NCBI GenBank assembly: GCA_034667745.1 | Contig: JAXDQP010000062.1 | Location: 958-64,957, forward strand | DNA length: 64,000 nt | Direction of reading: 5' to 3' | Origin: Thermoplasmata archaeon | GTDB taxonomy: Archaea > Thermoplasmatota > E2 > JACPAO01 > JAHFTW01 | Part shown: positions 8,624 to 24,476 of the stretch, piece after piece | Position numbering within the stretch: position 1 is the stretch's first letter | Layout: every line of letters begins with the position of its first letter | Notes under the pieces: generated by a model | What the model was told of the DNA's origin: nothing | What the model saw: the letters and a program-made list of their open reading frames with translations, nothing else | Database searches by the model: none | Position numbers and translations under genes: made by a program

Positions 8624-8624
8624 G

Positions 8625-8702
8625 GGAGGCCTGGGATTTCGGCGATTTGGGGAGGTGTGGGGGATTCCTAAAATCTGGGAATCGCTGGAATCCCAGGCCT
8701 CC
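8625..8702. repeat. MITE-like palindromic element, type A (copy A2, 78 bp)
   Basis: Left arm GGAGGCCTGGGATTTCGGCGATT 8625-8647; right arm AATCGCTGGAATCCCAGGCCTCC 8680-8702; between convergent argD and regulator gene ends. Confidence 0.8.
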
Positions 8703-8712
8703 CACACTCGCC

Positions 8713-9378: not shown

Positions 9379-9392
9379 CGGTCCGGGAGCGG

Positions 9393-13237: not shown

Positions 13238-13262
13238 TCCGGCGCGGCGGGGTGGAACGCGC

Positions 13263-13895
13263 GTGCGGGTCCTGGACCTGGGGCGCATGGAATACGGCGA
13301 GTGCCTCCAGCTCCAGCACCGTCTGCGCGACGAGCGGCAGCGCGGCGAGGGCGAGGACACGCTGCTGATGGTGGAGCACCCCCCCGTGGCGACGCTGGGG
13401 CGGCGCGGCAGCCCCGACGAGGTCTTCGACAAGACGCTGCCCGTGTTCACCATCGAGCGCGGCGGCAAGGCCACTTACCACGCGCCGGGGCAACTGGTCC
13501 TCTACCCCATCGTCCACCTCGGCGAGGGGAACCGCGACGTGCGCGCCTGGGTGCAGCACCTGGAGCGCTTCGTCATCGGACTGCTGGCGGCGCACGGCAT
13601 CGCGGCGCGCATCGAGCCCGACCTGCCGGGCGTGTGGACGGGGCCGCGCAAGGTCGCGAGCATCGGCATCGCCATCCAGCACTGGGTCAGCTTCCACGGC
13701 ATCGCCGTCAACGTGACGCTGGAGCCGAAAGAGTTCGAGCGCATCGACCCCTGCGGCCTGGGCGCGCAGGTGATGACGAGCATGGCGCGCGAAGGCAGCC
13801 CAGCGACGCTTCAGGATGTGAAGCAATGGGTCGTGCAGCACGCGCCAGGGCATTTCGGTAAGTTTGTTTCAAATCGCAATCAAATCACGAATTAA
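13263..13895 (+). CDS. lipB: lipoyl(octanoyl) transferase
   Basis: 210 aa; LipB-like core (ATYHAPGQLVLYP, GIAVNV); last ~12 codons lie in an AT-rich patch. Confidence 0.8.
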   Translation: MRVLDLGRMEYGECLQLQHRLRDERQRGEGEDTLLMVEHPPVATLGRRGSPDEVFDKTLPVFTIERGGKATYHAPGQLVLYPIVHLGEGNRDVRAWVQHLERFVIGLLAAHGIAARIEPDLPGVWTGPRKVASIGIAIQHWVSFHGIAVNVTLEPKEFERIDPCGLGAQVMTSMAREGSPATLQDVKQWVVQHAPGHFGKFVSNRNQITN

Positions 13896-14079
13896 CGATT
13901 CTTAGTGATTGATTGCTCAATTGCAGTATTTTACTAAATGAATGTATAGCTCATATAGTATTTAAGATTCAAATTGACGCATGGGAAATGCGCATTGCGA
14001 TAAATTGAAGCTAAATCCAGAACAAGCGAGAACAAATCGCGCAGAAGAAAAATCTAAGGAGTGAACCTGACGGTTTCTT
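13896..14079. promoter_or_regulatory. AT-rich (~30-35% GC by eye) non-coding patch with near-palindrome CAATCAAATCAC..GTGATTGATTG; left boundary of island and upstream region of recombinase gene
   Basis: Strong compositional contrast with the surrounding high-GC DNA; palindrome read directly. Confidence 0.5.
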
Positions 14080-14104
14080 GTGGAGATTCCAGGAGTGCAG
14101 TGCA

Positions 14105-14928
14105 TGGTCCGGGTTGCGCTCTACACCCGCGTCTCGACGGAGGACCAGGCGAAGGAGGGCTTCAGCCTGGACGCCCAGCTCGACCGCCTCCGCTTCTACT
14201 CAAAGGCGCAGGGATGGGACGTCGCGGGCGAGTACGTCGACGAGGGGCACAGCGGCCGCACGACGAAGCGCCCAATGTACCAGAAGATGATGGCCGAGCG
14301 CGCCGCGTGGGATGTCCTCTTGGTCCTCAAGATGGACCGCATCCACCGCAACAGCCGCAACTTCATGGCGATGATGGACGAGCTGCGCAAGGAGCAGAAG
14401 GAGTTCGCCAGCGTCACGGAGAGCCTGGACACCGGCACCGCGATGGGCCGCTTCGTCATGGACATCATCCAGCGCATCGCGCAGCTGGAGTCGGACCAGA
14501 TTGGGGAGCGCACCTACGTCGGGATGGAGCAGAAGGCCAAGACCCGCGCCGGCAACCTGGGCAAGCCCGCGCCGTTCGGCTACCGCTACACGCCGGAGGG
14601 CCCGTTTGCCATCGTTCCAGAGGAAGCTACGTTTGTCAGGATTATGTTCGATTCATACGCGAAAGGCGAAAAAAGAGGCGATATAGCGCAAAAGTTGGTC
14701 GAAATGGGGTCGAGGACCCGGTCCGGAAAGGAGTGGGACCGCTGGGCCGTCGCTGACATTCTGCTCAACCCCACCTATGCCGGCGCCACGCAGTGGGCGG
14801 ACCAGGTGCAGCTCGACACCCACCCCGCCATCATCCCGCCGGAGCAGTTTGACGCCGTGCAGGAACGCACGAAAATGGACAGTCCGAAGGCAAACGTGAC
14901 CTTCCTGACCCGGCTCACGGTCAACTGA
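14105..14928 (+). CDS. serine recombinase (resolvase/invertase catalytic domain plus partial 'recombinase' domain; short, ~274 aa)
   Basis: N-terminus MVRVALYTRVSTEDQ (catalytic Ser in the YxRVST motif), DRIHRN; C-terminal part resembles the recombinase domain of large serine recombinases but lacks zinc ribbon and coiled coil. Confidence 0.85.
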
Positions 14929-14956
14929 AGCGACTCGGCTTGGTTAGACCATTTTG

Positions 14957-14982
14957 GTGCCATACGGGCTCCCGTATGGCAC
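14957..14982. other. perfect 26-bp palindrome GTGCCATACGGG-CT-CCCGTATGGCAC (12-2-12), candidate serine-recombinase crossover site
   Basis: Read directly; 29 bp downstream of recombinase stop; geometry matches hix/gix/res-type sites with a central dinucleotide. Confidence 0.6.
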
Positions 14983-14994
14983 TCGGAGAGAACC
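14969..14994. repeat. direct repeat copy 1 CTCCCGTATGGCACTCGGAGAGAACC (pairs with 20745-20770)
   Basis: 26 bp, 25/26 identical to the second copy, same orientation; overlaps the right half of the palindrome. Confidence 0.8.
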
Positions 14995-15083
14995 AGGGGT
15001 CCTGCCGATTGCCATACGGGGTTCCGTGCCACGTGCGGCACGACGTCCGGTATATTTGACATATTCCGGCGGCCGCGCCGGAG

Positions 15084-15090
15084 ATATTTT
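15084..15090 (+). promoter_or_regulatory. TATA-box-like element (ATATTTT) about 25-30 nt upstream of small ORF 15115
   Basis: AT-rich heptamer in GC-rich context; a second TATATTT at 15051-15057. Confidence 0.3.
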
Positions 15091-15114
15091 CTCCAGCTCG
15101 GCCGTGCAGGGGGC

Positions 15115-15207
15115 ATGGACAAGCCGTTCGGCTGGAAGGCGTGGGTCGCGTTCGGGGCCTGCTCCGTGTTTGGGCTCGGCGCCCTCGCCTGGATCTTAGT
15201 GTCCTAG
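15115..15207 (+). CDS. putative 30-aa hydrophobic peptide MDKPFGWKAWVAFGACSVFGLGALAWILVS
   Basis: ATG..TAG ORF below the ORF-track size cutoff; single predicted TM helix; TATA-like box upstream. Confidence 0.3.
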   Translation: MDKPFGWKAWVAFGACSVFGLGALAWILVS

Positions 15208-15299
15208 GCAGTGGACCGCGACGGTGACGACCCCGAGGACGGCGGTCGACGCGAGGCCGAAGGCCCAGGACGCTAGGCGGGCGACGAGCCTCTGGTTCG

Positions 15300-16255
15300 T
15301 CATTCCCACTTCCTCCAGGGCTGGAGCCAGTCGCGGAAGGTGGCGAGGCCGTAGGGGTCGCGCTTCGTCTTCTCGACCTGCTCGGCGGACCACTCGCGGA
15401 CCGCGCGGTCGGGGGCGTCCCCGGCGCCGGGCGTGGCTGCGTTGACGAGCCAACGGGTGATGCCGGAAACGATGCCCGCAGACCCGGACGCGGCCTCGAC
15501 GCCCGTGACGATGGTGTGCCGGGCCGCGTAGTCGACGCCCCCGATGAACTCGTGCCCGACCGCGCTGCCGGTGTCGGCGCTGCCAGGCCAGATGATGGGC
15601 TCGAACGGGACCTTGACCCAGTCGCCCAGGTCAAGCTGCTTCTTCTCCGTCAGTCCGTCCCATCCTACGCCTGCGCCCCAGCCGGAGCTGGAGGATTTAT
15701 CGCCCTCGAGCGGGAGATATTCTTGCGAGCTGGGTGGGGGCGGGGCGACGTCGGCGTAGTGGGCGCCTGCGGGGTCGCGGCCGAGGTCGGCGGGTGGCGC
15801 GTCGAGGAAGTCCCAGTGTCCGTCCTTGGCGTCGTCGCGCAGGCGGAGGTTCAGGTCGAGGCGCGTCTGCGCTTCGGCTGCGGCCTGCTCGGGGTCGGCG
15901 TAGGTGCCGCGCACGTAGTTGGGGCCGCGGATGAAGTCGAGGATGCCGCGCGACTGCTCCACTTGAGCGTCAATCTGCGGGAGCCACTTGGACGCGTCCT
16001 CGCTGCTGCGAACGGAGTCGGCGAGGCGGCCCGCGTTCGGGGTCCACTTGAGCAAGTCGCTCCACGAGATGCGGGACGGCGCCGGAGCGGGCCCAGGAGC
16101 GGAGGCGGGCGTGGGCTCCGGCGCAGGAGTCTCTGGCGAGGGGGAGCTCCCAGGCGCAGGAGCGGGAGGGTGTTTCTTGCGCCACCAGAGCCACCCGCCC
16201 CAGCCCGCGAGGGCGGCCGCGCCGAGGGCGGCGGCTGCGACGTCGTCGCGCTGGG
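15300..16255 (-). CDS. island protein: N-terminal TM helix, Pro-rich linker, ~250-aa C-terminal domain of unknown function; no methionine anywhere in the 318 aa, start codon unresolved
   Basis: Long in-frame ORF immediately after the stop of the 16256-16750 gene; no ATG/GTG/TTG near its 5' end, first TTG is ~70 codons in; possible non-canonical start or -1 frameshift fusion with the upstream gene. Confidence 0.45.
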
Positions 16256-16750
16256 TCAGGTGAACTTCAACTCCCCGCTGACGGCGACGCCGTTGATGCC
16301 TGCGTCGGTGCTGACGACCTGGATGGTGATGCGGTCGCCGAGGGCGGCGACAGGTTCGTTCACGGTGTCGGCTTGCGCGTCGTTGGCAGCGGCCAGGGCG
16401 GGGTGCGTCACGGTGAGCGCGGACGCCACGCCGTTGATGAAGACCGTGACGACGACGGTCTCGCCTGCGCCCAGGGCGGTGCGCAGGACGCTGCGCAACT
16501 GGCGGATGCTGCCGGCGCGCGGCATGACGTAGCTGGATACGACGCTGACGGCGCCGAAGCCGCCGAGGCTGGCGTCCGTGTAGCCCTGCGGGTGGATGTA
16601 GCAGGTGGCGGCGGCCTGGAGCAGGGCGCCGCACCCGAAGGGCTTGCCGCGCTGCGAGTTGCCGAGCTTCGGCGCAGTGACGGCCTGGTCGTCTATCTCG
16701 GCGGTCTGGATGGTCTGGCCGACGCCAGCGCCGCGCCCGATGGTGGTCAC
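16256..16750 (-). CDS. island protein, 164 aa, beta-rich, unknown function
   Basis: ATG start; overlaps next gene by 4 nt (operon-like). Confidence 0.5.
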   Translation of the reverse strand: MTTIGRGAGVGQTIQTAEIDDQAVTAPKLGNSQRGKPFGCGALLQAAATCYIHPQGYTDASLGGFGAVSVVSSYVMPRAGSIRQLRSVLRTALGAGETVVVTVFINGVASALTVTHPALAAANDAQADTVNEPVAALGDRITIQVVSTDAGINGVAVSGELKFT

Positions 16751-17073
16751 TCGTAGGCCTCCAGTTCCTCAACATAGAGGTTGCCCGAGGCGGCATCCAA
16801 GTTGACCCAGAACTCGCCTTGGATGCTCTTGCCGTCGTGCTCGTAGTCCTTCACGATGCTGCCGCCGACGGCGTCGAGGCGGACGCCGCCAGTCAGGCTG
16901 CCGCCGGGGCGGCGGCGCAGGTGCGCGGCGTTGGCCTCGTTGTTGACCACGACGAGCGCGACCCGCAGGGGGTTGAAGGGGAGAAGGAGGGTGTCGACCG
17001 TGCCGACGGCCACGTTGCCCTCGGTCTTGATGCGCACGTTGCCCTTGGCGATGAGCGCGCGGACGTCGGGCAT
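16747..17073 (-). CDS. island protein, 108 aa, unknown function
   Basis: ATG start, 4-nt overlap with downstream gene. Confidence 0.5.
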   Translation of the reverse strand: MPDVRALIAKGNVRIKTEGNVAVGTVDTLLLPFNPLRVALVVVNNEANAAHLRRRPGGSLTGGVRLDAVGGSIVKDYEHDGKSIQGEFWVNLDAASGNLYVEELEAYE

Positions 17074-17076
17074 GGC

Positions 17077-17880
17077 TTACACCTTGGTGTTGACCGGGCG
17101 GACGTAGAGGTCCACGATTTGGACCTCATTGTCGGCGGCGTCGACCAGGAAGTCCGCCGTCGGCATGACCTGGGTGCTGAAGCGCCCGAGGACGCCCAGC
17201 TGGCCCGGCTCGAACATGGCGTGCGCGACGTCGGTGCGGGTGTCGTAGCACAGCACGCCGGGGCGGTGCGTCTGGCCCGCGAAGGCGAGGCGCATGGCGA
17301 TGCCGCTCGTGCTGATGGGGAACGCGGCCAGGACGTCGTAGACGCCCTCCAGCAGCGACTCGTCGGGGGTCAGCGCGCGGTTGTTCCAGTCGTTCGCGTT
17401 CATCGCGGCGGCGGCCGTGACGGTGCGAATCCAGAACCCGCCCTTGGGGTCCACGGCCTGCACGGGGCCGTCGCAGAACTGGGTCACGATGAACTGGTCC
17501 GTGGCGGCGGCCGGGTTGTTGACGGTCTCGTAGCCGACGAGCTCGCCGGGGCGCAGGCGGATGGGCTCGCGGCGGAAGTCGTTGACGACCGGCGGGGAGC
17601 CCGGCTCGACGGTGCTGGAGAGCTTGGGGACCTCGATGGCGCTGCGCTTGTAGGTGTCGCGCAGGCTGGGGGCGACGATGCGGCAGCGGGGCTGCACGGT
17701 GGCGTCGATGCCCGCGAACACGAACGCGACGCCGGGCAGTTCGCCGGGGACGCGGTAGAAGTCGCCGCTGCTGTCGCGCTGGAACAGCGGGGACAGGGTC
17801 TCCGCGATGGCGGCGAGCGGCTGGAGCGTGGCGGCGCCGTCCTGGTTCTCGAACCAGGCGACCATGTGCTGCCGCGTCAC
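17077..17880 (-). CDS. island protein, 267 aa, beta-rich (candidate structural/capsid-like protein; speculative)
   Basis: GTG start overlapping stop of upstream 50-aa gene (GTGA); no recognisable motif. Confidence 0.5.
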   Translation of the reverse strand: MTRQHMVAWFENQDGAATLQPLAAIAETLSPLFQRDSSGDFYRVPGELPGVAFVFAGIDATVQPRCRIVAPSLRDTYKRSAIEVPKLSSTVEPGSPPVVNDFRREPIRLRPGELVGYETVNNPAAATDQFIVTQFCDGPVQAVDPKGGFWIRTVTAAAAMNANDWNNRALTPDESLLEGVYDVLAAFPISTSGIAMRLAFAGQTHRPGVLCYDTRTDVAHAMFEPGQLGVLGRFSTQVMPTADFLVDAADNEVQIVDLYVRPVNTKV

Positions 17881-18029
17881 GCGAGCACCTCCAGGGCGGC
17901 GACCACTTCAGCGGGCGCGAGGGGCTGGAGGCGGGTCAGGCCGGGGCGCTTGACGGTGCCGTCCGCGTTGTAGACGAAGCCGGTCTCGGGGTCCCAGGCC
18001 TCGCGGTCCTTGTTGAGGATGACGGGCAT
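17877..18029 (-). CDS. small island protein, 50 aa (MPVILNKDREAWDPETGFVYNADGTVKRPGL...)
   Basis: ATG..TGA ORF found by manual translation, tightly packed between neighbours (3-nt gap upstream, GTGA overlap downstream). Confidence 0.45.
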   Translation of the reverse strand: MPVILNKDREAWDPETGFVYNADGTVKRPGLTRLQPLAPAEVVAALEVLA

Positions 18030-18032
18030 GGT

Positions 18033-18329
18033 TCACCAGATTTTGCGGCCGAACACCTTCGGCGAGCGGATTTTCAGGGCGCTGGCGATGCGCTTCTGGA
18101 GGCCGCGCCCCATCACGGGGATGGCCATCTGGGCGATGTTCCGGGCGGACACGGCCTCCTTGAGGGCGGGCTTGGCGGCGTTCATGGCGCCCTGCATGTC
18201 GCCGTTCATCGCCGCCTGGACGGCAGGGGTGAACGGCTCGACGGCCTGGACGACGATGTTCGTGGCGACGGCGAGGTCGCTCCAGGACTGCTTCGGCTTG
18301 CGGGGCTTGCTGTTCTTGGGCTTGGTCAT
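18033..18329 (-). CDS. small basic island protein, 98 aa (Lys/Arg-rich N-terminus, possible nucleic-acid binding)
   Basis: MTKPKNSKPRKPKQSW..; ATG start. Confidence 0.5.
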   Translation of the reverse strand: MTKPKNSKPRKPKQSWSDLAVATNIVVQAVEPFTPAVQAAMNGDMQGAMNAAKPALKEAVSARNIAQMAIPVMGRGLQKRIASALKIRSPKVFGRKIW

Positions 18330-18351
18330 GTCAGTGGTCTCCTTGGGTGTC

Positions 18352-18457
18352 TTACTTGCCCCACGTGGGGCGGGGGGCGAGGCGGCGCTTGCACTTGTTG
18401 TAGGCGCTCTTCTTGCGGTGCAGCCCGTGGCAGTACGGGCACTTCTTCAGTTGGGCC
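18352..18457 (-). CDS. 35-aa zinc-ribbon peptide MAQLKKCPYCHGLHRKKSAYNKCKRRLAPRPTWGK
   Basis: CPxC...C spacing typical of a zinc ribbon; ORF below track cutoff, found manually. Confidence 0.4.
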
Positions 18458-18460
18458 ATG

Positions 18461-18913
18461 TCAGGCGGGTCTCCAGGTGTTTTCCTTCGTTGCGTCGTTC
18501 ATGTGGGGGACAGTGCGGAGGAACGGTTCGAGGATGGGCTTCCAGCGGGCGCCGGACTCGTAGACGCCTTGCATGGTGTCCGGGCCGAGGAAGGCCTCGA
18601 TGCGCGCCACGTTGTCCGGGCCGAAGCGCTGCGCGATGAGCGTCTTGACCTCGACCTTCGTGGCGAGGGCGGTCAGGCGCTTCTCTTCGGCCTTCTGCCA
18701 GCGCAGGGCGGCGGCGTCCGTGGGGTCCACGCCGCCGCGCATGACGCCGGGCTTCAGCAGCGCATCCAGCCGAGCGCCTAGACGCGTCTCGGCGGCTGCA
18801 ATGTCGCGGTTGACGCGGGGGATGGTGTGCAACGTGGCGATGCAGGTGTCGGTGACGCACTGGGCGAACAGGCCGATGATGAAGGCGCCGATGGTCAGCA
18901 AAACCTGGTCCAT
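18461..18913 (-). CDS. island protein, 150 aa, N-terminal hydrophobic segment (membrane-associated)
   Basis: MDQVLLTIGAFIIGLFAQCV.. hydrophobic N-terminus. Confidence 0.45.
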   Translation of the reverse strand: MDQVLLTIGAFIIGLFAQCVTDTCIATLHTIPRVNRDIAAAETRLGARLDALLKPGVMRGGVDPTDAAALRWQKAEEKRLTALATKVEVKTLIAQRFGPDNVARIEAFLGPDTMQGVYESGARWKPILEPFLRTVPHMNDATKENTWRPA

Positions 18914-19339
18914 GTTTCACAGCAAGGATTGAACAGCATTTAGCTAGCGAGGTTTTCGGCTAAACGAGCGAATACATGTGGCGAGCTTGCGCTAAACAGC
19001 GTCCCAAATGCGTTCCGTGCGTTGACCTTAAGGGGAAACGCCAGCGTTGGGGGGTTTGGGGGGCGTAGGATGGAGCACAGGATTACCTGGGCGCACAGGC
19101 GCACAAGGCGACCGGACAAGGCGGCATCCTCAGCGGCCGGACAAGGGGGAGGTATGGAGGGGGAGCACCCCTTACGGCACGGTGCTCGCTTCGCTCGCGC
19201 CCCGTCATCTTGGGCGCGCTGCTGCGCGCACCCCCGACCGAGAGGAATCCCCCGGACCCCAGCCCGGAATCGACGGCAAGGCCCCTAGGCGCGCGTCCCT
19301 TGGCTCAGAAAAGGGAAGAAGGGGGAAGAGGCGACCGGG

Positions 19340-19549
19340 CTAGGATTCGAGCCAGCGCGCGCCCTGCGGAAGGGGCTCGTTGGCGGGCCACCACCCGGCG
19401 CGGCCGTCCACGCCCGCGGCGTAGCGCACGTGGGTGTGGCTGCCGTCAGGCCAGCTGACGCGCATGGTGCGCGCCCGAGGCGTAGGGCGGGCCGGTCGGA
19501 AGTCTCGGCGGGCGAGTTGGCAGCGGCAGCTAGTCGTCTTCTTGGCCAT
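19340..19549 (-). CDS. possible small Cys-containing protein, 69 aa
   Basis: ATG ORF MAKKTTSCRCQLARRD..; weak support. Confidence 0.25.
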   Translation of the reverse strand: MAKKTTSCRCQLARRDFRPARPTPRARTMRVSWPDGSHTHVRYAAGVDGRAGWWPANEPLPQGARWLES

Positions 19550-19775
19550 CGGGGGCCTCCACTCCAGACCTAGCCGAGCTGGCGGATTTATTCCGTGCCG
19601 ACGTCGCCTTGCCCAGCTGGAGCTCCGCGAGGCGGCCCAGGCGCGAGCTCACCGAGTGATAGCTCCAGGGGCGGTCCTTGAACGCGGGGTGCTTGTAGGC
19701 GTCGAGCTTGCGGATGCGCTCGGCCAGGCTGACCGGGATGCTGATGGTGGTGCGAGGCTCCTTGCTCACCGTCAC
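19530..19775 (-). CDS. ribbon-helix-helix (CopG/Arc-like) DNA-binding protein, ~80 aa
   Basis: GTG start overlapping upstream stop (GTGA); beta-strand TTISIPVSL followed by helices LAERIRKL..; the longer 117-aa ORF is probably an over-extension. Confidence 0.45.
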   Translation of the reverse strand: MTVSKEPRTTISIPVSLAERIRKLDAYKHPAFKDRPWSYHSVSSRLGRLAELQLGKATSARNKSASSARSGVEAPDGQEDD

Positions 19776-19903
19776 ACCACCGTGGGCGCGCGGGGACAGG
19801 TGGCGTGGTAGCAGGCGCTGCACACCACGGGCTTGCTGTCGGGGTCGAGCCAGCCCGGGTGTCCGCCCCGGCAGCCAGGGCACGAGTCGCAGAAGCCGCT
19901 CAC
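19772..19903 (-). CDS. small zinc-finger protein (~43 aa: VSGFCDSCPGC...CSACYHATCP)
   Basis: Two CxxC pairs; GTG start overlapping upstream stop (GTGA). Confidence 0.4.
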   Translation of the reverse strand: MSGFCDSCPGCRGGHPGWLDPDSKPVVCSACYHATCPRAPTVV

Positions 19904-20079
19904 GCGATAGCCCCCCGGCCGATGGCGTCGAGGATGCCGGGCTTGTCGAGGAGCTTCTCGACGCGGTCGAGGAGCCGGACGCAACTGGTGAGGGTTCCTC
20001 GACACTCGACCTCGACCTGTCCGATGCGGACGGAGATGCTGTTCCCGTAGTCCGGGCGGAGCCGGGCGGCGCGGCCCAT
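19900..20079 (-). CDS. small island protein, 59 aa
   Basis: ATG at 20079 immediately after upstream stop (TGACGATG); manual translation MGRAARLRPDYGNSISVRIGQVEVECRG.. Confidence 0.4.
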   Translation of the reverse strand: MGRAARLRPDYGNSISVRIGQVEVECRGTLTSCVRLLDRVEKLLDKPGILDAIGRGAIA

Positions 20080-20081
20080 CG

Positions 20082-20249
20082 TCAGGCCCCCGGCTTGCGC
20101 CAGCTGTTGCCGCCGTGCTGGCGGCAGTCGTTGTAGCTCAGGAGCTCGTAGGTCTCCGAGTTGCGCGACCAGGTGCAGCCGCAGGGCGCGGTGACCTGCT
20201 CCTCCTTGGCGGCCTTGGGGTGGAACGCCTTGCGCAGCAGGCCCTTCAC
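20082..20249 (-). CDS. small Cys-containing island protein, 55 aa
   Basis: GTG start overlapping stop of 20246 gene (GTGA); VKGLLRKAFHPKAAKEEQVTAPCGCTW.. Confidence 0.35.
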   Translation of the reverse strand: MKGLLRKAFHPKAAKEEQVTAPCGCTWSRNSETYELLSYNDCRQHGGNSWRKPGA

Positions 20250-20719
20250 TGCGACGCCCCCGGCACAGGGAGGTCCGAGTCCGAGTCCGTCAGGGGTCGT
20301 GCGACGCTCACGACTGTGAGGTGGAACGTCTTCTTCAGGCCCCGGCCTTCGCTGTGGATATCCAGGACGACGTTGCCGCTCCAGTCGGGGCCGCTGCGCA
20401 CGATGACGTCACGCAGGGAGACGGCCGCCGGGAGGCTCAGGATTTCCCAGACGCTCTCACGGGCGGTGCCTACTTCCAGGAAGGTCGCCACCGCGTACTT
20501 GGTGACGGCCTTCGAGCTCACGATGTTCCCGTTGTCGTCGTGGTTGGCGATGGTGTGCGGGATGCCCTGGGGGCCGTAGCCCTTCACGTCCACCAGGACG
20601 ACGCGCTGGGGCGTGCTCTCCGGCTGGAAGAACGTGGGCTTCGCCTTGTCGGGGAGGTTCAGGCCCGCGAGCCACGCGCCACGGTCAAGGGTCTTCTGTT
20701 CAGGGGTCGTCTCTTGCAT
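20246..20719 (-). CDS. island protein, ~157 aa (ATG at 20719; alternative GTG at 20758 lies inside the direct repeat)
   Basis: MQETTPEQKTLDRGAWLAGLNLP..; unknown function. Confidence 0.5.
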   Translation of the reverse strand: MQETTPEQKTLDRGAWLAGLNLPDKAKPTFFQPESTPQRVVLVDVKGYGPQGIPHTIANHDDNGNIVSSKAVTKYAVATFLEVGTARESVWEILSLPAAVSLRDVIVRSGPDWSGNVVLDIHSEGRGLKKTFHLTVVSVARPLTDSDSDLPVPGASQ

Positions 20720-20744
20720 ACGGTTCGCTCCAAATTGGCTCGAA

Positions 20745-20770
20745 CTCCCGTATGGCACTCGAAGAGAACC
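20745..20770. repeat. direct repeat copy 2 CTCCCGTATGGCACTCGAAGAGAACC
   Basis: 25/26 identity with 14969-14994, same orientation; the sequence to its left does not match the left palindrome half. Confidence 0.8.
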
Positions 20771-20792
20771 GCATTTTTCCCGTAGATTTTGC

Positions 20793-21176
20793 TCATTTTT
20801 GTGCAGAACTGGCCAAAATCATCAGGATGTCCGCTTCCAACTGGCTCAGCAGCCGGGTGAGGAACAGGTAGACCAAGGTGAGGAGGCCGGTGAGCGCGCC
20901 GGCCACGCGAACGGCGGCGGTGACGACCGGGGTTGCCTGTGAGAGTCCGGGGACGAAGTTGGCCGCCAGGCCGACGACGGTGCCGGCGAAGCCCAGGTAG
21001 AGCAGCACGAGGGCGCCGGTGCGGACGCGGTCCCAGCGGCGCAGGCTTGCGGCGCGCTCGTGCAGGAGGCTGTCGCGGCCGCGGCTGCCCAGCTCGAGGG
21101 CCTGCAGGATGTGCCCATAGCGGCTGTGCAATAGCCACTGGAGGCGGGACTCGTAGGGGTACACGCGGCCGGCAAG
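20793..21176 (-). CDS. small membrane protein (two predicted TM helices); start uncertain (TTG/GTG)
   Basis: C-terminal part GALVLLYLGFAGTVVGLAANFV..VVTAAVRVAGALTGLLTLVYLFL hydrophobic; no internal ATG. Confidence 0.4.
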   Translation of the reverse strand, partial: LAGRVYPYESRLQWLLHSRYGHILQALELGSRGRDSLLHERAASLRRWDRVRTGALVLLYLGFAGTVVGLAANFVPGLSQATPVVTAAVRVAGALTGLLTLVYLFLTRLLSQLEADILMILASSAQK

Positions 21177-21399
21177 GGGGGCGCGGAGATGGGGTTGCCG
21201 CTCCGTTGCGTCGGGAGCAAAAGGGGGAGAAGGGGGAAGATTGGGGTGGTCACGCCAGGCGTTCGGTGTATTCCCATTCGCTGGTGACCACACGGATCCA
21301 GACGTAGCTGTCCATGCGATGCCTCCCATTTCCTTGGGGCGCCGACGGCCTCCCAGCCGTGCGACAGAGTCGCGGGGCGTCCCGAGGGAAACCGGACTA

Positions 21400-21596
21400 T
21401 GCGTTGCGTGATTTAAGGCGTTCCAAGCGAAGCGACGGTGCCGATGCAACACCACCCAGAAATGTTCCCGTGCAGTTATAAGATTTATAAATAAATGGGA
21501 GCAACTTTGCATCAAAGCATTTGATTCGCGCAAAAGCGCAACGACACGACTGATTCTCAATCAGCGAAATTCAATCTGAATCCGCAAATCTGTTCA
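21400..21596. promoter_or_regulatory. AT-rich patch with TTTATTTATAAATC TATA-like box on the minus strand; right boundary of island
   Basis: Composition contrast; TATA-like sequence read directly. Confidence 0.45.
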
Positions 21597-21863
21597 TCAG
21601 TCGAGCAGCGTGAACAGGACGTCATCCTGCCCCACGTCGAACACGCCCAGCCGCGCGCCCGCGTCGAGCCAGCCGTGCGCGTAGTTGACCTGCGCGAACG
21701 CGTTCACGAAGTCGCCCTGGGCGTGGAAGTGCTGCGCGTCGGCGTAGTAGCGCTTGGCCATGTCGAGGAAGTTGTCGGCGATCTTGGCCGCGAAGGACTT
21801 CGGCGGCGCCACGACCTTGACCTTCTCGAAGGCGCGCCGCGTGGTGTCGAGGTACTTCCCCAT
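21597..21863 (-). CDS. small conserved archaeal protein, 88 aa (DUF357-like guess)
   Basis: MGKYLDTTRRAFEKVKVV..YYADAQHFHAQGDFVNAFAQVNYAHGWLDAGARLG; 29-nt gap after the HerA-like gene, same strand. Confidence 0.5.
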   Translation of the reverse strand: MGKYLDTTRRAFEKVKVVAPPKSFAAKIADNFLDMAKRYYADAQHFHAQGDFVNAFAQVNYAHGWLDAGARLGVFDVGQDDVLFTLLD

Positions 21864-21892
21864 CTTCTCCGCGGAAATCTCCCTCTGCGGGG

Positions 21893-23992
21893 TCAACGCC
21901 ACAGCCGGCGCAAGGTGGAGCGGGTCTTTTGCCGTTCCTGCTGCAGCAGGCGGTGGTAGGTGCAGCCCGCCTGCTCGGGGCAGCGGATGCAGGCCGGTCC
22001 CTCCGGCAGGCAGGCGTTCTCCGCGATCTCCAGCAGCAGCCGCAGGCGGGCGTCGGGGTCGCGGTGGTGTGACGCCTCGAGGTCGCCGACGATGGCGACG
22101 GTGCGCGCGGGGTCCTGGTCTGGCCCCACGAGGCCGATGCGGGAGGCGACGCGGTGGATGTCCTTGGCGTCCCCGGCGGTCCAGCTCTTGCGGACCTTGT
22201 GGGCGAGGAACGCGTCGTCCGGGATGAGGCGGCGCGGGGAGCGGGGCAGCGTCTGGAACTCGACCTCGGGCGCCTGGACCGGGAGGACCGGCTTGGGGCG
22301 CGCGGGCGGCGCGATGGCCGGGGCAGCGGGCGAGGCAGCGGGAGCCGGTGGGACGGGCGCAGGCGGGGGTTGGAACGCGCTGGGCGGCGTCCACACCGGC
22401 GCCACGGGCTTCGGCGGGTCAACACTCGGGGCCGGGTTCAGGGGCGCGCGGGGCGCAGGGGGCGGCAGAACGGGCGCCTGGGGCGCTTCGCCATCGTCCT
22501 CCTCTTCGTCCTCGTCCGACTCCTGGTGCAGCACGGACACGGAGCGGCCGCCGTGGCGCGTCAGGCGGGGGCGCACCGACACGAAGACCGGCTGCGTGAG
22601 GCCGCCACCCGCCACGAGGGCCTCCCCCACGGCGAGGCGCTGGATTTCATCGGCGACCTCCGCCGAGATGCCCTCGACGCTCTGGACGATGGCCTTGAGG
22701 TCATTCGGGTTCGTGACCTTCAGCACGACCTGGGTGTTGCACTGCGACAGCACGTTCTTGTCGATCTTCGCCGGGCGCTGGCTCACGATGACGAGGCCCA
22801 TGCCGAATTTGCGGCCCTCCGAGGCCACGGTGCGGATGATGGCTCCGCTCACGGCGTTGCCCACGTTCCTTTCCGGGCAGAAGTTGTGCGCCTCCTCCAC
22901 CACGAGGATGTGCGCGGGAATCTCGCCGCGCTTGCGCGCCTCCCAGAGCATGTTCGCGATTCGCGTGACGACGATCTCCTGGATGTCGGGGTTGACACCC
23001 TTGAGGTTCACGATGGTGCACTGGCCCGGCGCGACCAGCTCCTTGACGGGGGTGCCGCGGATGTCGAAGACCTTCGTGGACTCCAGGACCTCGAGGGCGT
23101 TGAGGACGTTCCACTTGGCGTTCGATTTGTTGCGCGCGACGCCGTCCATGATGTCGCGCAGCGTGTAGGCGGGGAGATGCTCCTTGATCTCCTTGATGGC
23201 CTGGTAGAGCACGCCCACCTGGCCGCCGGAGAGCTTGCCGCCCAGCAGGTCCACGATGTCGCGGCCCTCCAGGTTCATGCCCTCCAGCACCAGGCGCTGC
23301 GCTTCGGGGTTGAGCTGGACGTCGAGGGCGTACTCCTTGACCTGCTTGGCGAACGACTTGGGCTTCACCTTGTAGCGCGCCATCGCCTCCAGCTCGCCCT
23401 CGTCGAGGTTGGGGCTCCGCAGGGAGCCGTACTCGCCGTGCGGGTCGAGGATGACCAGCGGCACGTTGGCCTTGATGAGCTCCTCCAGGATGACCGCGAC
23501 GGTGTAGGATTTGCCGGCGCCGGTCTTCGCCAGCACCGAGAGGTGCTTCTGCGCCACCGTGTCCATGGAGAGCGCGACGGGAATCTTGCTGCCCTTGACG
23601 AAGCCGAGGTAGGCGCCGCCCTCCGCCGACTGCTCCAGCCCCAGCACGGTCGTGACGAGGCGGTCGTCGGCGTTGTAGACCGGCACCCCGGCGCGGAACG
23701 GCGTGCGCGGCGTCTGGATGCGGCCCTGCTGGTCCTGGTAGCCGATGACGCGCACGCCGGCCGAGAGCTGGTCCTCGGCATCGGCGGCCAGCCCCTCGGG
23801 AATCGCGACGGCCTGCTCGTAGCTCAGGCTGCTGCGCCGCAGGACGGCGTCGACCTGCGCCAGGACGCGGTGGCCCTCGGACTCCACCTCGACGTAGTCC
23901 AGGCGCTTGAGCCCGGAGTCCCCCACGGCGATGTCGAACGCGGTGCTCGACACGTTGCCGTAGATGATGCCGACCTGGCGGCGCAGGGCCAT
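21893..23992 (-). CDS. HerA-like (DUF87/FtsK-HerA superfamily) ATPase with N-terminal HAS-barrel-like region, Pro-rich linker and C-terminal Cys-cluster domain
   Basis: Walker A LAKTGAGKS, Walker B HILVVEEAH; acidic patch DEDEEEDDGE then ~80 aa Pro-rich; C-terminus ..ACLPEGPACIRCPEQAGC.. Confidence 0.8.
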   Translation of the reverse strand: MALRRQVGIIYGNVSSTAFDIAVGDSGLKRLDYVEVESEGHRVLAQVDAVLRRSSLSYEQAVAIPEGLAADAEDQLSAGVRVIGYQDQQGRIQTPRTPFRAGVPVYNADDRLVTTVLGLEQSAEGGAYLGFVKGSKIPVALSMDTVAQKHLSVLAKTGAGKSYTVAVILEELIKANVPLVILDPHGEYGSLRSPNLDEGELEAMARYKVKPKSFAKQVKEYALDVQLNPEAQRLVLEGMNLEGRDIVDLLGGKLSGGQVGVLYQAIKEIKEHLPAYTLRDIMDGVARNKSNAKWNVLNALEVLESTKVFDIRGTPVKELVAPGQCTIVNLKGVNPDIQEIVVTRIANMLWEARKRGEIPAHILVVEEAHNFCPERNVGNAVSGAIIRTVASEGRKFGMGLVIVSQRPAKIDKNVLSQCNTQVVLKVTNPNDLKAIVQSVEGISAEVADEIQRLAVGEALVAGGGLTQPVFVSVRPRLTRHGGRSVSVLHQESDEDEEEDDGEAPQAPVLPPPAPRAPLNPAPSVDPPKPVAPVWTPPSAFQPPPAPVPPAPAASPAAPAIAPPARPKPVLPVQAPEVEFQTLPRSPRRLIPDDAFLAHKVRKSWTAGDAKDIHRVASRIGLVGPDQDPARTVAIVGDLEASHHRDPDARLRLLLEIAENACLPEGPACIRCPEQAGCTYHRLLQQERQKTRSTLRRLWR

Positions 23993-24058
23993 CAGGAGAC
24001 CACTCCTGGAGGTCCTATATCAGGCCGCCCAAATGGACCTAGGAGGGCCGCCGGGAAC

Positions 24059-24145
24059 GGAGGCCTGGGATTCCAGCGATTTCAGAGTTTAGGAAACCTG
24101 GGCCAAGTCTTCGCAATCCCAAATCACCGCAACCCTCCGGCCTCC
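24059..24145. repeat. MITE-like palindromic element, type A (copy A3, degenerate right arm)
   Basis: Left arm GGAGGCCTGGGATTCCAGCGATT is the exact reverse complement of the A2 right arm; right arm only partially conserved (..CCGGCCTCC). Confidence 0.6.
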
Positions 24146-24171
24146 CCGCACGCGGGAGGAAAAACCTCGCG

Positions 24172-24420
24172 TTAGGCGAGCGTCTCGAGCTGGGACATGA
24201 TGTTCCAGACGAGGGTGCGGCCGTGCAGGGGGATGTTGGGGTCGTTGGCCATGTCGTCCAGGGTGCCGATGGCCTTGGCCTTGCGGACGTCGAGGGGCTC
24301 GCCCTGGTTGGTGAGGAGGGCCTTGATCTGCTCCGCGGCGCGGCGGATGTTGCGGGGGACGCTGGTGTCCTCGACGAGCATGTCCAAGCCGGTCGTGATG
24401 TTCTGGATGCGCGACGCCAT
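24172..24420 (-). CDS. small conserved archaeal protein, 82 aa (UPF0147-like guess)
   Basis: MASRIQNITTGLDMLVEDTSVPRNIRRAAEQIKALL..; located 56 nt downstream of hef. Confidence 0.45.
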   Translation of the reverse strand: MASRIQNITTGLDMLVEDTSVPRNIRRAAEQIKALLTNQGEPLDVRKAKAIGTLDDMANDPNIPLHGRTLVWNIMSQLETLA

Positions 24421-24476
24421 GAAAACGACCCCAGGAGCGGATGCCCCTTGACGGGTCGCGCGACGGAAGGGGCCTC

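What the first reader, a model, noticed from the sequence alone, without database searches (positions are those of the whole stretch)
18914..19340. ~430-bp non-coding region inside the island with iteron-like repeats and G-tracts: candidate replication origin
Between the 18461-18913 gene and the next small ORF there is no convincing ORF. The DNA carries a lower-GC stretch with GCTAAAC twice (ttcggctaaacgagcg .. gcgctaaacagcg). It has G-runs (ggggaaacgccagcgttggggggtttggggggcg) with G-quadruplex potential. It has tandem imperfect repeats of CCGGACAAGG (gcacaaggcg-accggacaaggcggc-..-gccggacaaggggga at ~19101-19150). Short direct repeats next to an AT-richer patch are the classic layout of plasmid or virus replication origins, or of a regulatory RNA locus.
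Basis: seen in the sequence. Interest (0 to 1): 0.55.

Follow-up and report, generated by a model that had tools for sequence, protein, structure and literature searches.

The report
Control region of tiny archaeal provirus
The 430-bp gap is the one large non-coding region of a 5.8-kb virus-like element integrated in a Thermoplasmata archaeon; it holds the promoter of the capsid-gene operon plus a conserved folded element, absent from RNA databases, that probably serves the element's replication.

Summary

The "island" is a 5.8-kb provirus (14970-20771) with 26-nt att repeats. Its host is a Thermoplasmata archaeon. It belongs to an unannotated family of about 6-kb circular elements with a probable double-jelly-roll capsid protein.

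All 12 relatives examined keep a 300-430-nt non-coding region just upstream of the structural operon. In the window it has three parts:
- A 25-nt polypyrimidine/oligo-T tract follows the last early gene and is probably a terminator.
- A roughly 220-nt conserved core (19123-19344) occurs only in the six elements that carry a 157-aa OB-fold-like early protein. It folds the same way in all six: a closing helix with compensatory changes, variable hairpins and an unpaired C-rich box.
- An AT-richer late promoter lies next to the structural genes. Its GCTAAAT box is 25 nt before the ATG and forms an inverted repeat with GCTAAAC.

A replication role for the core is my favoured reading (about 0.4), acting as a single-strand fold and not as iterons plus an AT-rich unwinding patch. 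A regulatory RNA is a serious rival. There is no Rfam match.

The parts
14970..20771 (-). Integrated 5.8-kb virus-like element (provirus). All its genes are on the minus strand. The finding is its only large internal non-coding region.
   Evidence: 26-nt direct repeats CTCCCGTATGGCACTCG[G/A]AGAGAACC lie at 14970-14995 and 20746-20771. Synteny with contig L002 breaks at 14929/14930 and at 20795/20796. Free circular relatives of 5.8-6.3 kb were found.
18914..19339 (-). Non-coding region between the last early gene (69 aa, 19340-19549) and the first gene of the structural operon (150 aa, 18461-18913).
   Evidence: There is no codon-phase GC signal and no conserved reading frame. A non-coding region of 300-430 nt sits at the same place in 12 related elements.
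18938..18944 (-). GCTAAAT, the probable TATA box of the late (structural-operon) promoter. It ends 25 nt before the ATG at 18913.
   Evidence: Host genes and tRNAs in the window carry TATA-like boxes about 25-33 nt upstream. It is the right arm of the inverted repeat TTTAGC-N14-GCTAAA.
18959..18997 (+). Two GCTAAAC copies (18959-18965 and 18991-18997). Read on the minus strand they are GTTTAGC. They are probable operator half-sites, or a divergent TATA box.
   Evidence: Analogous AT-rich palindromes (GTTATC-N6-GATAAC, CTAAAC-N3-GTTTAG, TCTGTTA-N16-TAACAGA) lie 15-42 nt upstream of the ATG in L004, L007, L010, L068 and L071, and GTTAC-N7-GTAAC lies 43 nt upstream in L006.
19049..19063 (+). G6-TTT-G6 tract (C6-AAA-C6 on the sense strand).
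   Evidence: It is shared only with L068 (CCCCCCCAACCCCCC), so it is not a conserved part of the core.
19090..19146 (+). Short-repeat cluster: GGCGCACA x2 (19090-19105) and CCGGACAAGG x2 (19112-19121 and 19137-19146).
   Evidence: The 19137-19146 copy lies 3' of the C-box on the sense strand and pairs with GGUCGG in the predicted fold. Relatives duplicate a different short sequence at the same two positions.
19123..19250 (-). Folded domain of 128 nt. The closing helix P5 pairs GGAUUCCUCUCG (19250-19239) with GCUGAGGAUGCC (19134-19123). Inside are a G-run/C-run extension and hairpins at 19212-19233 and 19163-19187.
   Evidence: P5 closes the unconstrained minimum-energy fold in all six type-A elements on this strand. 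On the extracted arms, six pairs show changes on both sides, which none of 500 shuffles reached.
19145..19163 (-). C-box CCCCCTCCATACCTCCCCC (consensus CCCCCTYCAnACMTCCCCC), nearly invariant. Its 5' C-run and centre are unpaired in five of the six predicted folds (not L002).
   Evidence: It is unique in the 64-kb window and present in all six type-A elements. Its pairing state is read.
19188..19194 (-). GCGAAGC (GCTTCGC on the + strand), a mini-hairpin motif at the same position in four of six type-A elements.
   Evidence: The motif class is known at complementary-strand origins of ssDNA phages (PMC13037366). Its frequency here is not above chance.
19257..19267 (-). 3' arm of stem P1 (CCGGGCUGGGG).
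   Evidence: Inverted repeat I1. It pairs 10/10 with the 5' arm at 19335-19344.
19271..19289 (-). Box 1: CCTAGGGGCCTTGCCGTCG (CCTAGG followed by CCnTGCCGT).
   Evidence: Conserved columns in alignments A1 and A6. CCTAGG occurs only 0-4 times per element, and in 7 of 12 elements a copy lies in the non-coding region or within about 60 nt upstream of it.
19307..19331 (-). 25-nt polypyrimidine tract with TTTT (CCTCTTCCCCCTTCTTCCCTTTTCT on the sense strand), starting 8 nt after the stop codon of the 69-aa gene. It is the probable terminator of the early operon.
   Evidence: It is the longest purine/pyrimidine run in the 64-kb window. The same tract is at the same place in type-A elements and in L067. 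Similar CT-rich tracts with T-runs follow other short ORFs in the host, for example at 21240.
19335..19344 (-). 5' arm of stem P1 (CCUAGCCCGG). It overlaps the stop codon of the 69-aa gene.
   Evidence: The equivalent stems are AGCCCGACU/AGUCGGGCU in L007 (9/9) and CCUCGCCCGG/CUGGGAGGGG in L002 (9/10, read by eye from the sequences).
20246..20719 (-). 157-aa early protein (fam 4), the only early protein shared by all elements that carry this type of core. It is possibly an OB-fold single-strand DNA-binding protein.
   Evidence: Co-occurrence is 6 of 6 against 0 of 6. The AlphaFold model has pLDDT 71. Structural matches are weak and include phage ssDNA-binding and DUF669 proteins (E 1.5e-3 to 5e-2, TM 0.3-0.4).
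17077..17880 (-). [quoted passage not shown] It is the marker of the element family.
   Evidence: The AlphaFold model has pLDDT 93. PM2 P2, PRD1 P3 and PBCV-1 capsid proteins are among weak Foldseek matches. Homologues: 32 and 839 cluster representatives.

Best explanation
The stretch is the single large intergenic control region of a 5.8-kb virus-like element integrated in a Thermoplasmata archaeon. Read on the element's coding strand (the window's minus strand) it has three parts.

1. Right after the last early gene lies a 25-nt polypyrimidine tract with a T-run. It most likely terminates early transcription.

2. Next comes a conserved core of about 220 nt (19123-19344). It consists of a stem (P1) around the pyrimidine tract and a CCTAGG..TGCCGT box, followed by a 128-nt domain. 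That domain is closed by the helix AUYCCYCUC/GAGGAU and contains variable GC hairpins. It also carries the nearly invariant box CCCCCTYCAnACMTCCCCC, which is largely unpaired in most of the predicted folds.

3. Next to the structural genes lies an AT-richer late promoter. Its TATA-like GCTAAAT ends 25 nt before the ATG, and it forms an inverted repeat with GTTTAGC that probably serves as an operator.

Shown: the anatomy; the conservation; the link between the core and one early-gene module; the common predicted fold with compensatory changes.

Inferred: the core acts in single-stranded form as the element's cis-acting replication signal. It would be a priming or initiation site used by host enzymes together with the OB-fold-like early protein. 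The nearest analogues are single-strand origins of rolling-circle plasmids and the complementary-strand origins in the intergenic regions of small ssDNA phages. It would not work as a double-stranded iteron origin.
For: Mobile-element context:
- att repeats and the synteny break define the element.
- Circular relatives of 5.8-6.3 kb exist.

Position and modularity:
- All 12 relatives have their main non-coding region at this place.
- The core comes in three unrelated sequence types that follow the early module. Type A goes with the fam-4 protein in 6 of 6 elements against 0 of 6 others. Type B goes with a resolvase, plus a DNA methylase in L001 and L004. Type C goes with a rolling-circle Rep, PF23343.

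Selection:
- The core aligns to L002 at 71% identity, the same as the coding DNA, whereas the promoter-proximal part does not align.
- The boxes stay invariant between elements whose capsid proteins are only 48% identical.

Fold:
- P5 closes the unconstrained MFE fold in 6 of 6 elements on the sense strand and 4 of 6 on the antisense strand.
- Sense z-scores are -1.0 to -4.7, all negative.
- Six pairs change on both sides, reached by 0 of 500 shuffles; 74% of cells are paired against 30-52% in slid registers.
- L068 has an 11-bp perfect version, AUCCUGAGACG/CGUCUCAGGAU.
- Hairpins are longer than in shuffles (Fisher P = 0.002).
- Type B cores also show a long-range helix in which I read a compensatory change by eye from the MFE folds.

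Hints that ssDNA matters in this family:
- No packaging ATPase was recognised in the 5.8-kb element (its largest proteins have no Pfam or PHROG match), nor in the Pfam marks of the relatives' called genes, despite a probable double-jelly-roll capsid.
- One relative encodes a rolling-circle Rep.
- Fam 4 gives weak matches to ssDNA-binding proteins.
- All genes lie on one strand.

Analogy:
- Single-strand origins are about 160 nt, fold only in single-stranded form, work in one orientation, come in several interchangeable classes and carry conserved motifs (PMC5703833).
- GCGAAGC-type mini-hairpins occur at phage complementary-strand origins (PMC13037366).

Promoter part.
Against: - No rolling-circle Rep or any other initiator, primase or polymerase was recognised in the window's element or seen in the other type-A elements. 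It is therefore unclear how ssDNA would arise.
- The nature of the virion nucleic acid is unknown.
- Co-occurrence with the early module would also be expected for a regulatory element.
- A fold conserved on one strand fits an RNA equally well.
- The strand is not settled. In P5, five C-A mismatches on the sense strand would be G-U pairs on the other strand, against two the other way (and my reading of it).
- Thermodynamic support is modest. Z-scores of the Box1-Box2 segments are unremarkable. Duplex energies are mostly no better than shuffles.
- The P5 domain boundaries and register were chosen by me from these same six sequences.
- The fam-4 assignment as an ssDNA-binding protein rests on weak structure matches only.
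- GCGAAGC is no more frequent here than chance.
Confidence: 0.4

Rival explanations
1. The core is a structured regulatory RNA, not a DNA replication signal. One version: it is the 3' untranslated end of the early operon and acts on termination, letting transcription read through into the late structural operon, as an anti-terminator or attenuator would. The other version: it is an antisense RNA started from the symmetric TATA-like palindrome and running back over the early genes.
For: - The fold is conserved and has compensatory changes and G-U pairs.
- It lies between the early and late operons, directly after a likely terminator tract.
- The short sequence after the C-box is duplicated just after the GAGGAU arm, in the window and in relatives. 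This could allow alternative pairings as in a switch.
- The GCTAAAC boxes on the + strand point into the core.
- No Rep gene was recognised, so nothing requires a viral origin here.
Against: - There is no Rfam match even at E up to 10.
- No TATA-like box lies upstream of the core in the sense direction.
- If the pyrimidine/T tract terminates efficiently, little sense RNA would cover the core.
- On the + strand no T-run of four or more follows the core within the sequence read (18300-19900).
- RNA-based anti-termination is not established in archaea (my own knowledge).
Confidence: 0.3
2. The region is only a transcriptional control region. The short direct and inverted repeats are operators for the element's own ribbon-helix-helix and zinc-finger proteins, which switch the late promoter. 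The apparent fold is a by-product of inverted binding sites in GC-rich DNA.
For: - Type-A early modules encode ribbon-helix-helix proteins (window 19530-19790, L072 3374-3637) and Cys-rich proteins.
- A family of three direct copies and one inverted copy of CCYWGYCCGG exists in the window.
- Such repeat arrays are typical ribbon-helix-helix operators (my own knowledge).
- Thermodynamic tests are weak.
Against: - The arms of P5 and P1 lie 67-110 nt apart, far for a dimer operator.
- The small DNA-binding proteins differ between type-A elements, whereas the boxes and P5 are conserved in all six.
- Single-position compensatory changes (AUCU/AGAU in L072, CCUG/CAGG in L068) are expected for base pairing. 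They are not expected for two sites read by one protein.
- The inner hairpins keep their position but not their sequence.
Confidence: 0.15
3. One reading: a double-stranded replication origin of the iteron type. An initiator binds the direct repeats, and the adjacent AT-richer patch unwinds.
For: - Two exact CCGGACAAGG copies lie 25 nt apart, with degenerate copies nearby.
- The lowest-GC patch of the element is adjacent.
- The core is linked to the early module.
Against: - There are only two exact copies. Their spacing is irregular (25, 13 and 198 nt) and the sequence is not conserved in relatives.
- No initiator gene was recognised.
- The AT-richer patch coincides with the promoter. Its motifs recur across elements with different cores, so they belong to the structural operon.
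- At 44% GC over 80 nt it is a weak unwinding element.
Confidence: 0.1
4. The region encodes a small protein that gene callers missed, for example the 98-aa open frame at 19047-19343 on the + strand.
For: Open frames of 90-150 codons exist on the + strand in all six elements. Translated segments give local similarity, for example 49% over 84 residues between the window and L002.
Against: - There is no GC3 signal (0.62 against 0.87-0.98 in real genes).
- Similarity of the same size appears in several frames and on both strands, as expected from nucleotide conservation.
- The frame is broken by stops in L002, L007 and L010, including inside the conserved box.
Confidence: 0.02

Closest known systems
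Single-strand origins (ssoA, ssoU, ssoT, ssoW, ssoL) of rolling-circle plasmids, and the sso of ICEBs1
   Same: - A non-coding cassette of about 150-250 nt in a very small replicon.
- Extensive, largely sequence-independent secondary structure on one strand.
- Short conserved motifs alongside variable stems.
- Several unrelated classes that are exchanged between otherwise related replicons (PMC5703833, PMC4595007).
   Different: - No sequence similarity was looked for or seen.
- The window's element has no recognisable rolling-circle Rep.
- The host is an archaeon, where no sso has been described to my knowledge.
- Single-stranded intermediates are not shown.
Intergenic region of Ff (M13/fd) phages and the complementary-strand origins of G4, St-1 and alpha3 microviruses
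   Same: - One large, hairpin-rich non-coding region in a genome of about 6 kb with all genes on one strand.
- It comes together with a small ssDNA-binding protein.
- GCGAAGC/GCGAAAGC-type mini-hairpins are present (PMC13037366).
   Different: - Those phages encode a Rep (gene II or gene A) and have different capsids.
- The GCGAAGC motif here is not statistically enriched.
- The strandedness of this element's genome is unknown.
Late-operon promoter region of corticovirus PM2 and PM2-like prophages
   Same: - A small circular membrane-virus-type genome with a double-jelly-roll capsid protein of about 269 aa.
- An early operon with small DNA-binding and zinc-finger regulators, followed by a promoter for a long structural operon (my own knowledge of PM2; fold match).
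   Different: - PM2 is 10 kb, bacterial, and has a packaging ATPase and the Rep P12.
- No comparable conserved folded element of about 220 nt is known upstream of its late promoter.
ColE1 RNA II / R-loop-primed origins
   Same: - No element-encoded initiator.
- A structured transcript over a G/C-skewed stretch and a purine tract could prime DNA synthesis.
- TATA-like boxes on the + strand point into the core.
   Different: This is purely an analogy. No transcript, RNase H site or start of DNA synthesis is known here. The G-richness of the + strand is a property of the whole element, not of this region.

Membership tests
Iteron-type (theta) plasmid or virus origin | Three or more direct repeats of about 17-22 bp at regular spacing | tested here: not met
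   There are two exact 10-mers 25 nt apart, plus degenerate copies at irregular spacing. The repeat sequence is not conserved in relatives.
Iteron-type (theta) plasmid or virus origin | A cognate initiator (Rep) gene in the element | tested here: not met
   The element proteins scanned, including all the larger ones, have no Pfam or PHROG match. The fam-4 profile has no hit in Pfam, PHROGs or PDB sequences. The early proteins are small. An unrecognised initiator cannot be excluded.
Iteron-type (theta) plasmid or virus origin | An adjacent AT-rich unwinding element | tested here: inconclusive
   An 80-nt patch of 44% GC starts at 18900. It coincides with the TATA-like promoter and operator motifs.
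Rolling-circle double-strand origin | An HUH or Rep_trans-type Rep gene and a nick site in a hairpin next to it | tested here: not met
   No Rep was recognised in the window's element. Only relative L006 has a PF23343 Rep, and it has a different, unrelated core.
Single-strand origin / complementary-strand origin | Non-coding, about 150-300 nt | tested here: met
   The core at 19123-19344 is about 220 nt and non-coding.
Single-strand origin / complementary-strand origin | Conserved secondary structure on one strand with variable stems and conserved motifs | tested here: met
   The caveats are that there are only six sequences and that I chose the register.
Single-strand origin / complementary-strand origin | Strand (orientation) specificity | tested here: inconclusive
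   P5 is in the MFE fold in 6 of 6 on the sense strand against 4 of 6 on the antisense strand. The balance of G-U against C-A pairs in P5 points the other way.
Single-strand origin / complementary-strand origin | The element replicates through single-stranded DNA, and the site primes lagging-strand synthesis | not testable with these tools
   There are only indirect hints: no packaging ATPase recognised, a Rep in one relative, and a weakly SSB-like protein.
Known RNA families (Rfam 15) | A covariance-model match at or near the gathering score | tested here: not met
   The gathering-threshold search of the window finds only three tRNAs. The E-value search of 18800-19450 gives only chance-level hits of 11-16 bits.
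Archaeal chromosomal-type origin (ORB boxes plus Orc1/Cdc6) | An Orc1/Cdc6 gene adjacent and inverted ORB repeats around an AT-rich stretch | tested here: not met
   No element protein scanned matches any Pfam family, Orc1/Cdc6 included. The C-box occurs once only. A direct comparison with the host's ORB sequence was not made.
Archaeal promoter (TATA box, leaderless or short-leader mRNA) | An AT-rich hexamer or octamer about 25-33 nt upstream of the start | tested here: met
   GCTAAAT ends 25 nt before the ATG at 18913. Host genes and tRNAs in the window show comparable boxes at about the same distance. Transcription itself was not tested.
Canonical G-quadruplex motif | Four G3+ tracts separated by loops of 1-7 nt | tested here: not met
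   Read directly: GGGG-N13-G6-TTT-G6. Only three usable tracts lie within reach, and the tract is absent from four of six relatives.

The most novel reading that the evidence does not exclude
These roughly 6-kb circular elements are an undescribed family of archaeal single-stranded-DNA viruses with a double-jelly-roll capsid, comparable to the bacterial phage FLiP. The conserved folded core at 19123-19344 is their complementary-strand (single-strand) origin. Host enzymes would prime it with the help of the OB-fold early protein and without an element-encoded Rep. That would be the first origin of this kind in Archaea, and it would come in interchangeable cassettes.
Probability: 0.2. Interest if true: 0.8.

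Novelty: new variant of a known kind. Interest (0 to 1): 0.55.

Why it matters
Small viruses and plasmids pack their cis-acting signals into one intergenic region. Finding that region is the entry point to how they replicate and switch from early to late genes.

Here the region belongs to a large family that has so far gone unannotated:
- The capsid protein has 839 cluster representatives.
- None of those tested matches Pfam or PHROGs, and none was found in IMG/VR or INPHARED.
- The elements are about 6-kb circles and infect high-GC Thermoplasmata archaea.
- They have a probable double-jelly-roll capsid but no recognisable packaging ATPase or Rep.

Almost nothing is known about viruses of this host group. 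The conserved folded core is a concrete object with defined helices, an unpaired invariant box and a co-occurring protein. It can be tested by binding assays, structure probing and strand-specific sequencing. If it is a host-primed origin, it would show how such minimal archaeal viruses replicate. It could also serve as a starting point for vectors.

Tried and rejected
- Rfam at gathering and at E up to 10 found nothing.
- INPHARED phages by blastn gave no match.
- IMG/VR searched by capsid protein and by alignment gave no relative.
- IMG/VR and the GTDB genomes searched with the C-box pattern gave only unrelated hits, such as phage terminator hairpins and bacterial repeats.
- The JGI metagenome scan gave only three loci, two of them already known.
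- The first alignment was too diverse for that scan.
- The fam-4 protein has no sequence-family or PDB-sequence match. Its structural matches are only weak. I therefore do not call it an SSB with any firmness.
- ssDNA folding z-scores of the Box1-Box2 segments are not remarkable.
- Duplex energies against shuffles are mostly not significant, because any G-rich and C-rich pair of windows binds well.
- I first read the motif AUCCCCUC-loop-GGGGGG as a local hairpin. I dropped this when the long-range partner GAGGAU turned up.
- The GCGAAGC motif and CCTAGG were tested for enrichment. GCGAAGC is not enriched. CCTAGG is rare and often near the region, but it is not universal.
- Stem P1 is clear in only three of six elements, so I did not test it formally.
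- The purine tract read as a retrovirus-like primer or R-loop site stays speculative. Similar CT/T tracts follow other short ORFs in the host, so a terminator is the simpler reading.
- A coding role is rejected.
- The att-like CCCTTACGGCAC inside the core is a chance-level match.
Full report
**1. The observation**

Window 18914-19339 lies between a 150-aa gene (18461-18913, minus strand) and a 69-aa gene (19340-19549, minus strand). Real genes in this 70% GC genome have third-position GC of 0.87-0.98 and second-position GC of 0.40-0.55. Across the gap all three phases stay at 0.55-0.80.

- GCTAAAC is at 18959-18965 and 18991-18997. An inverted GCTAAAT is at 18938-18944. GCTAAAY occurs 6 times in 64 kb against 1.9 expected, and three copies lie within 60 bp here.
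- GGGG is at 19032-19035 and G6-TTT-G6 at 19049-19063.
- CCGGACAAGG is at 19112-19121 and 19137-19146. These are the only exact copies in the window.
- More degenerate copies are at 19099-19108 and 19335-19344, with an inverted copy at 19253-19267.

**2. The context is an archaeal provirus**

The window encodes MCM, a Hef-type helicase-nuclease and HerA. One island protein is annotated in NCBI as coming from a Thermoplasmata archaeon MAG.

Comparison with a syntenic metagenome contig (L002) gives these identities:
- 8001-14929: 85-87%.
- 20796-25563: 83-88%.
- 14930-20795: only about 71%, and inverted.

The segment is bounded by 26-nt direct repeats (14970-14995 and 20746-20771). These contain serine-recombinase-type palindromic half-sites. 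A 282-aa serine recombinase gene ends exactly at the left boundary.

None of the element's proteins that I scanned matches Pfam or PHROGs.

The 267-aa protein (17077-17880) has 32 homologues, many on contigs of 5.2-6.3 kb. Several of these contigs have terminal overlaps, so they are circular genomes. Its AlphaFold model is confident (pLDDT 93). The weak Foldseek matches include the double-jelly-roll capsid proteins of PM2, PRD1 and PBCV-1.

An exhaustive HMMER scan finds 839 cluster representatives, 277 of them at E <= 1e-10. Ten representatives sampled across the range have no Pfam or PHROG match. IMG/VR and INPHARED hold no relative.

The "island" is therefore a 5.8-kb provirus of a large, unannotated family of small circular elements.

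**3. The gap is a conserved feature of the family and is modular**

In all 12 related elements examined, a non-coding region of about 300-430 nt sits directly upstream of the homologue of the 150-aa gene. That gene is the first of the structural operon.

The sequence of this region comes in unrelated types that follow the neighbouring early genes:
- Type A: window, L002, L007, L010, L068 and L072.
- Type B: L001, L004 and L071, which have a small resolvase; L001 and L004 also carry a DNA methylase.
- Type C: L005/L006, with a rolling-circle Rep, PF23343.

All six type-A elements encode a homologue of the 157-aa protein at 20246-20719. None of the six others does.

Between the window and L002, the distal part (19114-19344) aligns at 71% identity, the same as coding DNA. 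The promoter-proximal part does not align.

**4. The promoter-proximal part (18914 to about 19030)**

This is the lowest-GC patch of the element, at 44%. GCTAAAT ends 25 nt before the ATG. Host genes and tRNAs in the window carry TATA-like boxes about 25-33 nt upstream.

It belongs to the structural operon.

**5. The pyrimidine tract**

On the coding strand a 25-nt pure pyrimidine tract with TTTT starts 8 nt after the stop codon of the 69-aa gene. It is the longest purine or pyrimidine run in the 64-kb window. It recurs at the same position in type-A elements and in L067.

Similar CT-rich tracts with T-runs follow other short ORFs in the host DNA. I read it as the oligo-T terminator of the early operon. 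This is an inference.

**6. The conserved core (19123-19344)**

Alignments show two nearly invariant boxes:
- CCTAGG..CCnTGCCGT, at 19271-19289.
- CCCCCTYCAnACMTCCCCC, at 19145-19163, unique in the window.

Repeat finding in the six elements exposed a long-range complementarity. AUYCCYCUC lies just 3' of the first box region, and it pairs with a GAGGAU box 3' of the C-box. In L068 this is an 11-bp perfect duplex.

When the arms are extracted and counted:
- 74% of cells pair, against 67% in column shuffles (3 of 500 shuffles reach this) and 30-52% in slid registers.
- Six pairs change on both sides, which no shuffle of 500 reached. Examples are AUCU/AGAU in L072 and CCUG/CAGG in L068.

Folding each domain without constraints gives the same architecture in all six:
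- this helix closes the domain;
- it is usually extended by a G-run paired to the C-run or duplicated segment after the C-box;
- one or two GC hairpins of unrelated sequence lie inside;
- the 5' C-run and centre of the C-box are left unpaired in five of the six.

Sense-strand z-scores are -1.0 to -4.7. On the opposite strand the closing helix appears in four of six. Perfect hairpins are longer than in shuffles (Fisher P = 0.002).

A second stem (P1) encloses the pyrimidine tract and the first box:
- window: 19335-19344 with 19257-19267, 10/10 pairs;
- L007: 9/9;
- L002: 9/10, by my own reading of the sequences;
- weak in the other three.

Type B cores also show a long-range helix in which I read a compensatory change by eye from the MFE folds.

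Caveats:
- There are only six sequences.
- I derived the register and the domain ends from those same sequences.
- Broader thermodynamic tests are unremarkable.
- The G-U against C-A balance does not settle the strand.

Relatives duplicate other short sequences there: GCCCGC in four elements and UCGYCC in L002.

**7. What it is not**

- It is not a protein gene.
- It matches no known RNA family.
- It is not a canonical G-quadruplex motif, and the G6-TTT-G6 tract is shared with only one relative.
- It is not a classical iteron origin. There are too few and too irregular repeats, no recognisable initiator, and the AT-rich patch is explained by the promoter.

**8. Mechanism**

Helix arms 67-110 nt apart with single-position compensatory changes point to pairing in a single-stranded nucleic acid. 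They do not suggest duplex protein-binding sites. Two readings remain.

I favour a replication signal acting as folded single-stranded DNA (about 0.4). It would be a priming or initiation site like plasmid single-strand origins or the complementary-strand origins of small ssDNA phages. The reasons are:
- It is the only large non-coding block in a tightly packed 5.8-kb genome.
- It travels as a cassette with the early module, as single-strand origins do (PMC5703833).
- The only early protein shared by all type-A elements gives weak structural matches to phage ssDNA-binding proteins.
- The family has a probable double-jelly-roll capsid but no recognisable packaging ATPase, and one member has a rolling-circle Rep.
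- A GCGAAGC mini-hairpin sits at the same place in four of six elements. Such hairpins occur at phage complementary-strand origins (PMC13037366).

The main weakness is that no Rep was recognised in type-A elements, so the source of ssDNA is unexplained.

The rival (about 0.3) is a regulatory RNA between the early and late operons. A pure operator array (about 0.15) and the iteron model (about 0.1) fit the data less well.

**9. Novelty and verdict**

I found no description of this element family or of the core in the searchable literature. The region is a new variant of a known kind of thing: the intergenic control and origin region of a small circular virus.

The origin interpretation is partly supported, but by different features than those cited.

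Noticed in passing
window 14970-20771; L002 7418-13084: The 5.8-kb element sits between lipB plus a serine recombinase on one side and a DUF357-HerA cluster on the other. In the syntenic contig L002 a related element (about 71% identity) occupies the same site in the opposite orientation. The att half-site CCCGTATGGCAC occurs at 14957-14968(-), 14971-14982(+), 15009-15020(-, one mismatch) and 20747-20758(+).
   Followed up: partly
window 14080-14928 (+): The 282-aa serine recombinase (Resolvase plus Recombinase domains) ends exactly at the synteny break. It is conserved at host level (85% nt, 92% aa against L002), whereas the element is about 71%. It may be a resident gene that serves successive elements, or the slowly evolving part of the element.
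   Followed up: partly
window 17077-17880 (-) and loci L001-L010, L064-L073: This is a large, unannotated family of 5.8-6.3-kb circular elements with a probable double-jelly-roll capsid protein. There are 839 cluster representatives, with no Pfam, PHROG, IMG/VR or INPHARED match. No packaging ATPase or polymerase was recognised. The early modules are interchangeable: OB-fold protein plus ribbon-helix-helix proteins; resolvase (with a methylase in two of three); or a rolling-circle Rep.
   Followed up: partly
window 20796-21600: This low-GC stretch (0.64) has a 255-aa ORF rich in hydrophobic stretches. It also has a small ORF followed by a 22-nt CT tract (21219-21240) that resembles the tract in the finding. 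It is conserved with L002 at host level and may be a remnant of an older element.
   Followed up: no
window 19169-19180 (+): CCCTTACGGCAC, in the loop of a core hairpin, resembles the att half-site CCCGTATGGCAC with two mismatches. By the shuffle test this is chance level.
   Followed up: partly
L001 5440-5570; L004 5220-5330; L071 about 340-450: The unrelated type B non-coding regions also contain a long-range helix, in which I read a compensatory change by eye: CUCCGAAACGG/CUGUUUCGGAG, CCCGGAAC/GUUCCGGG and GUCGGGAAAC/CUUUUCCGGAC. A folded domain therefore seems to be a general feature of this region in the family.
   Followed up: partly
L007 4008-4379: This encodes a 123-aa protein built almost entirely of tandem AAYxAAVExA repeats, in the early module of a circular relative.
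   Followed up: no
window 19772-19960 (-); L007 4545-4967; L073 2840-2956: A small Cys-rich protein with a shared motif (C-x-NDPCGGSG-Y-x-DP in L007 and L073; FCDSCPGCRGGHPGWLDPDS in the window) recurs in type-A early modules. It overlaps other called ORFs in the window.
   Followed up: no
window 8000-30000: Host genes flanking the element: argG, an ornithine/aspartate carbamoyltransferase, lipB, HerA, Hef (helicase plus ERCC4 nuclease), a ketopantoate reductase and MCM. The proteins are not acidic, so this high-GC archaeon is not a haloarchaeon.
   Followed up: partly
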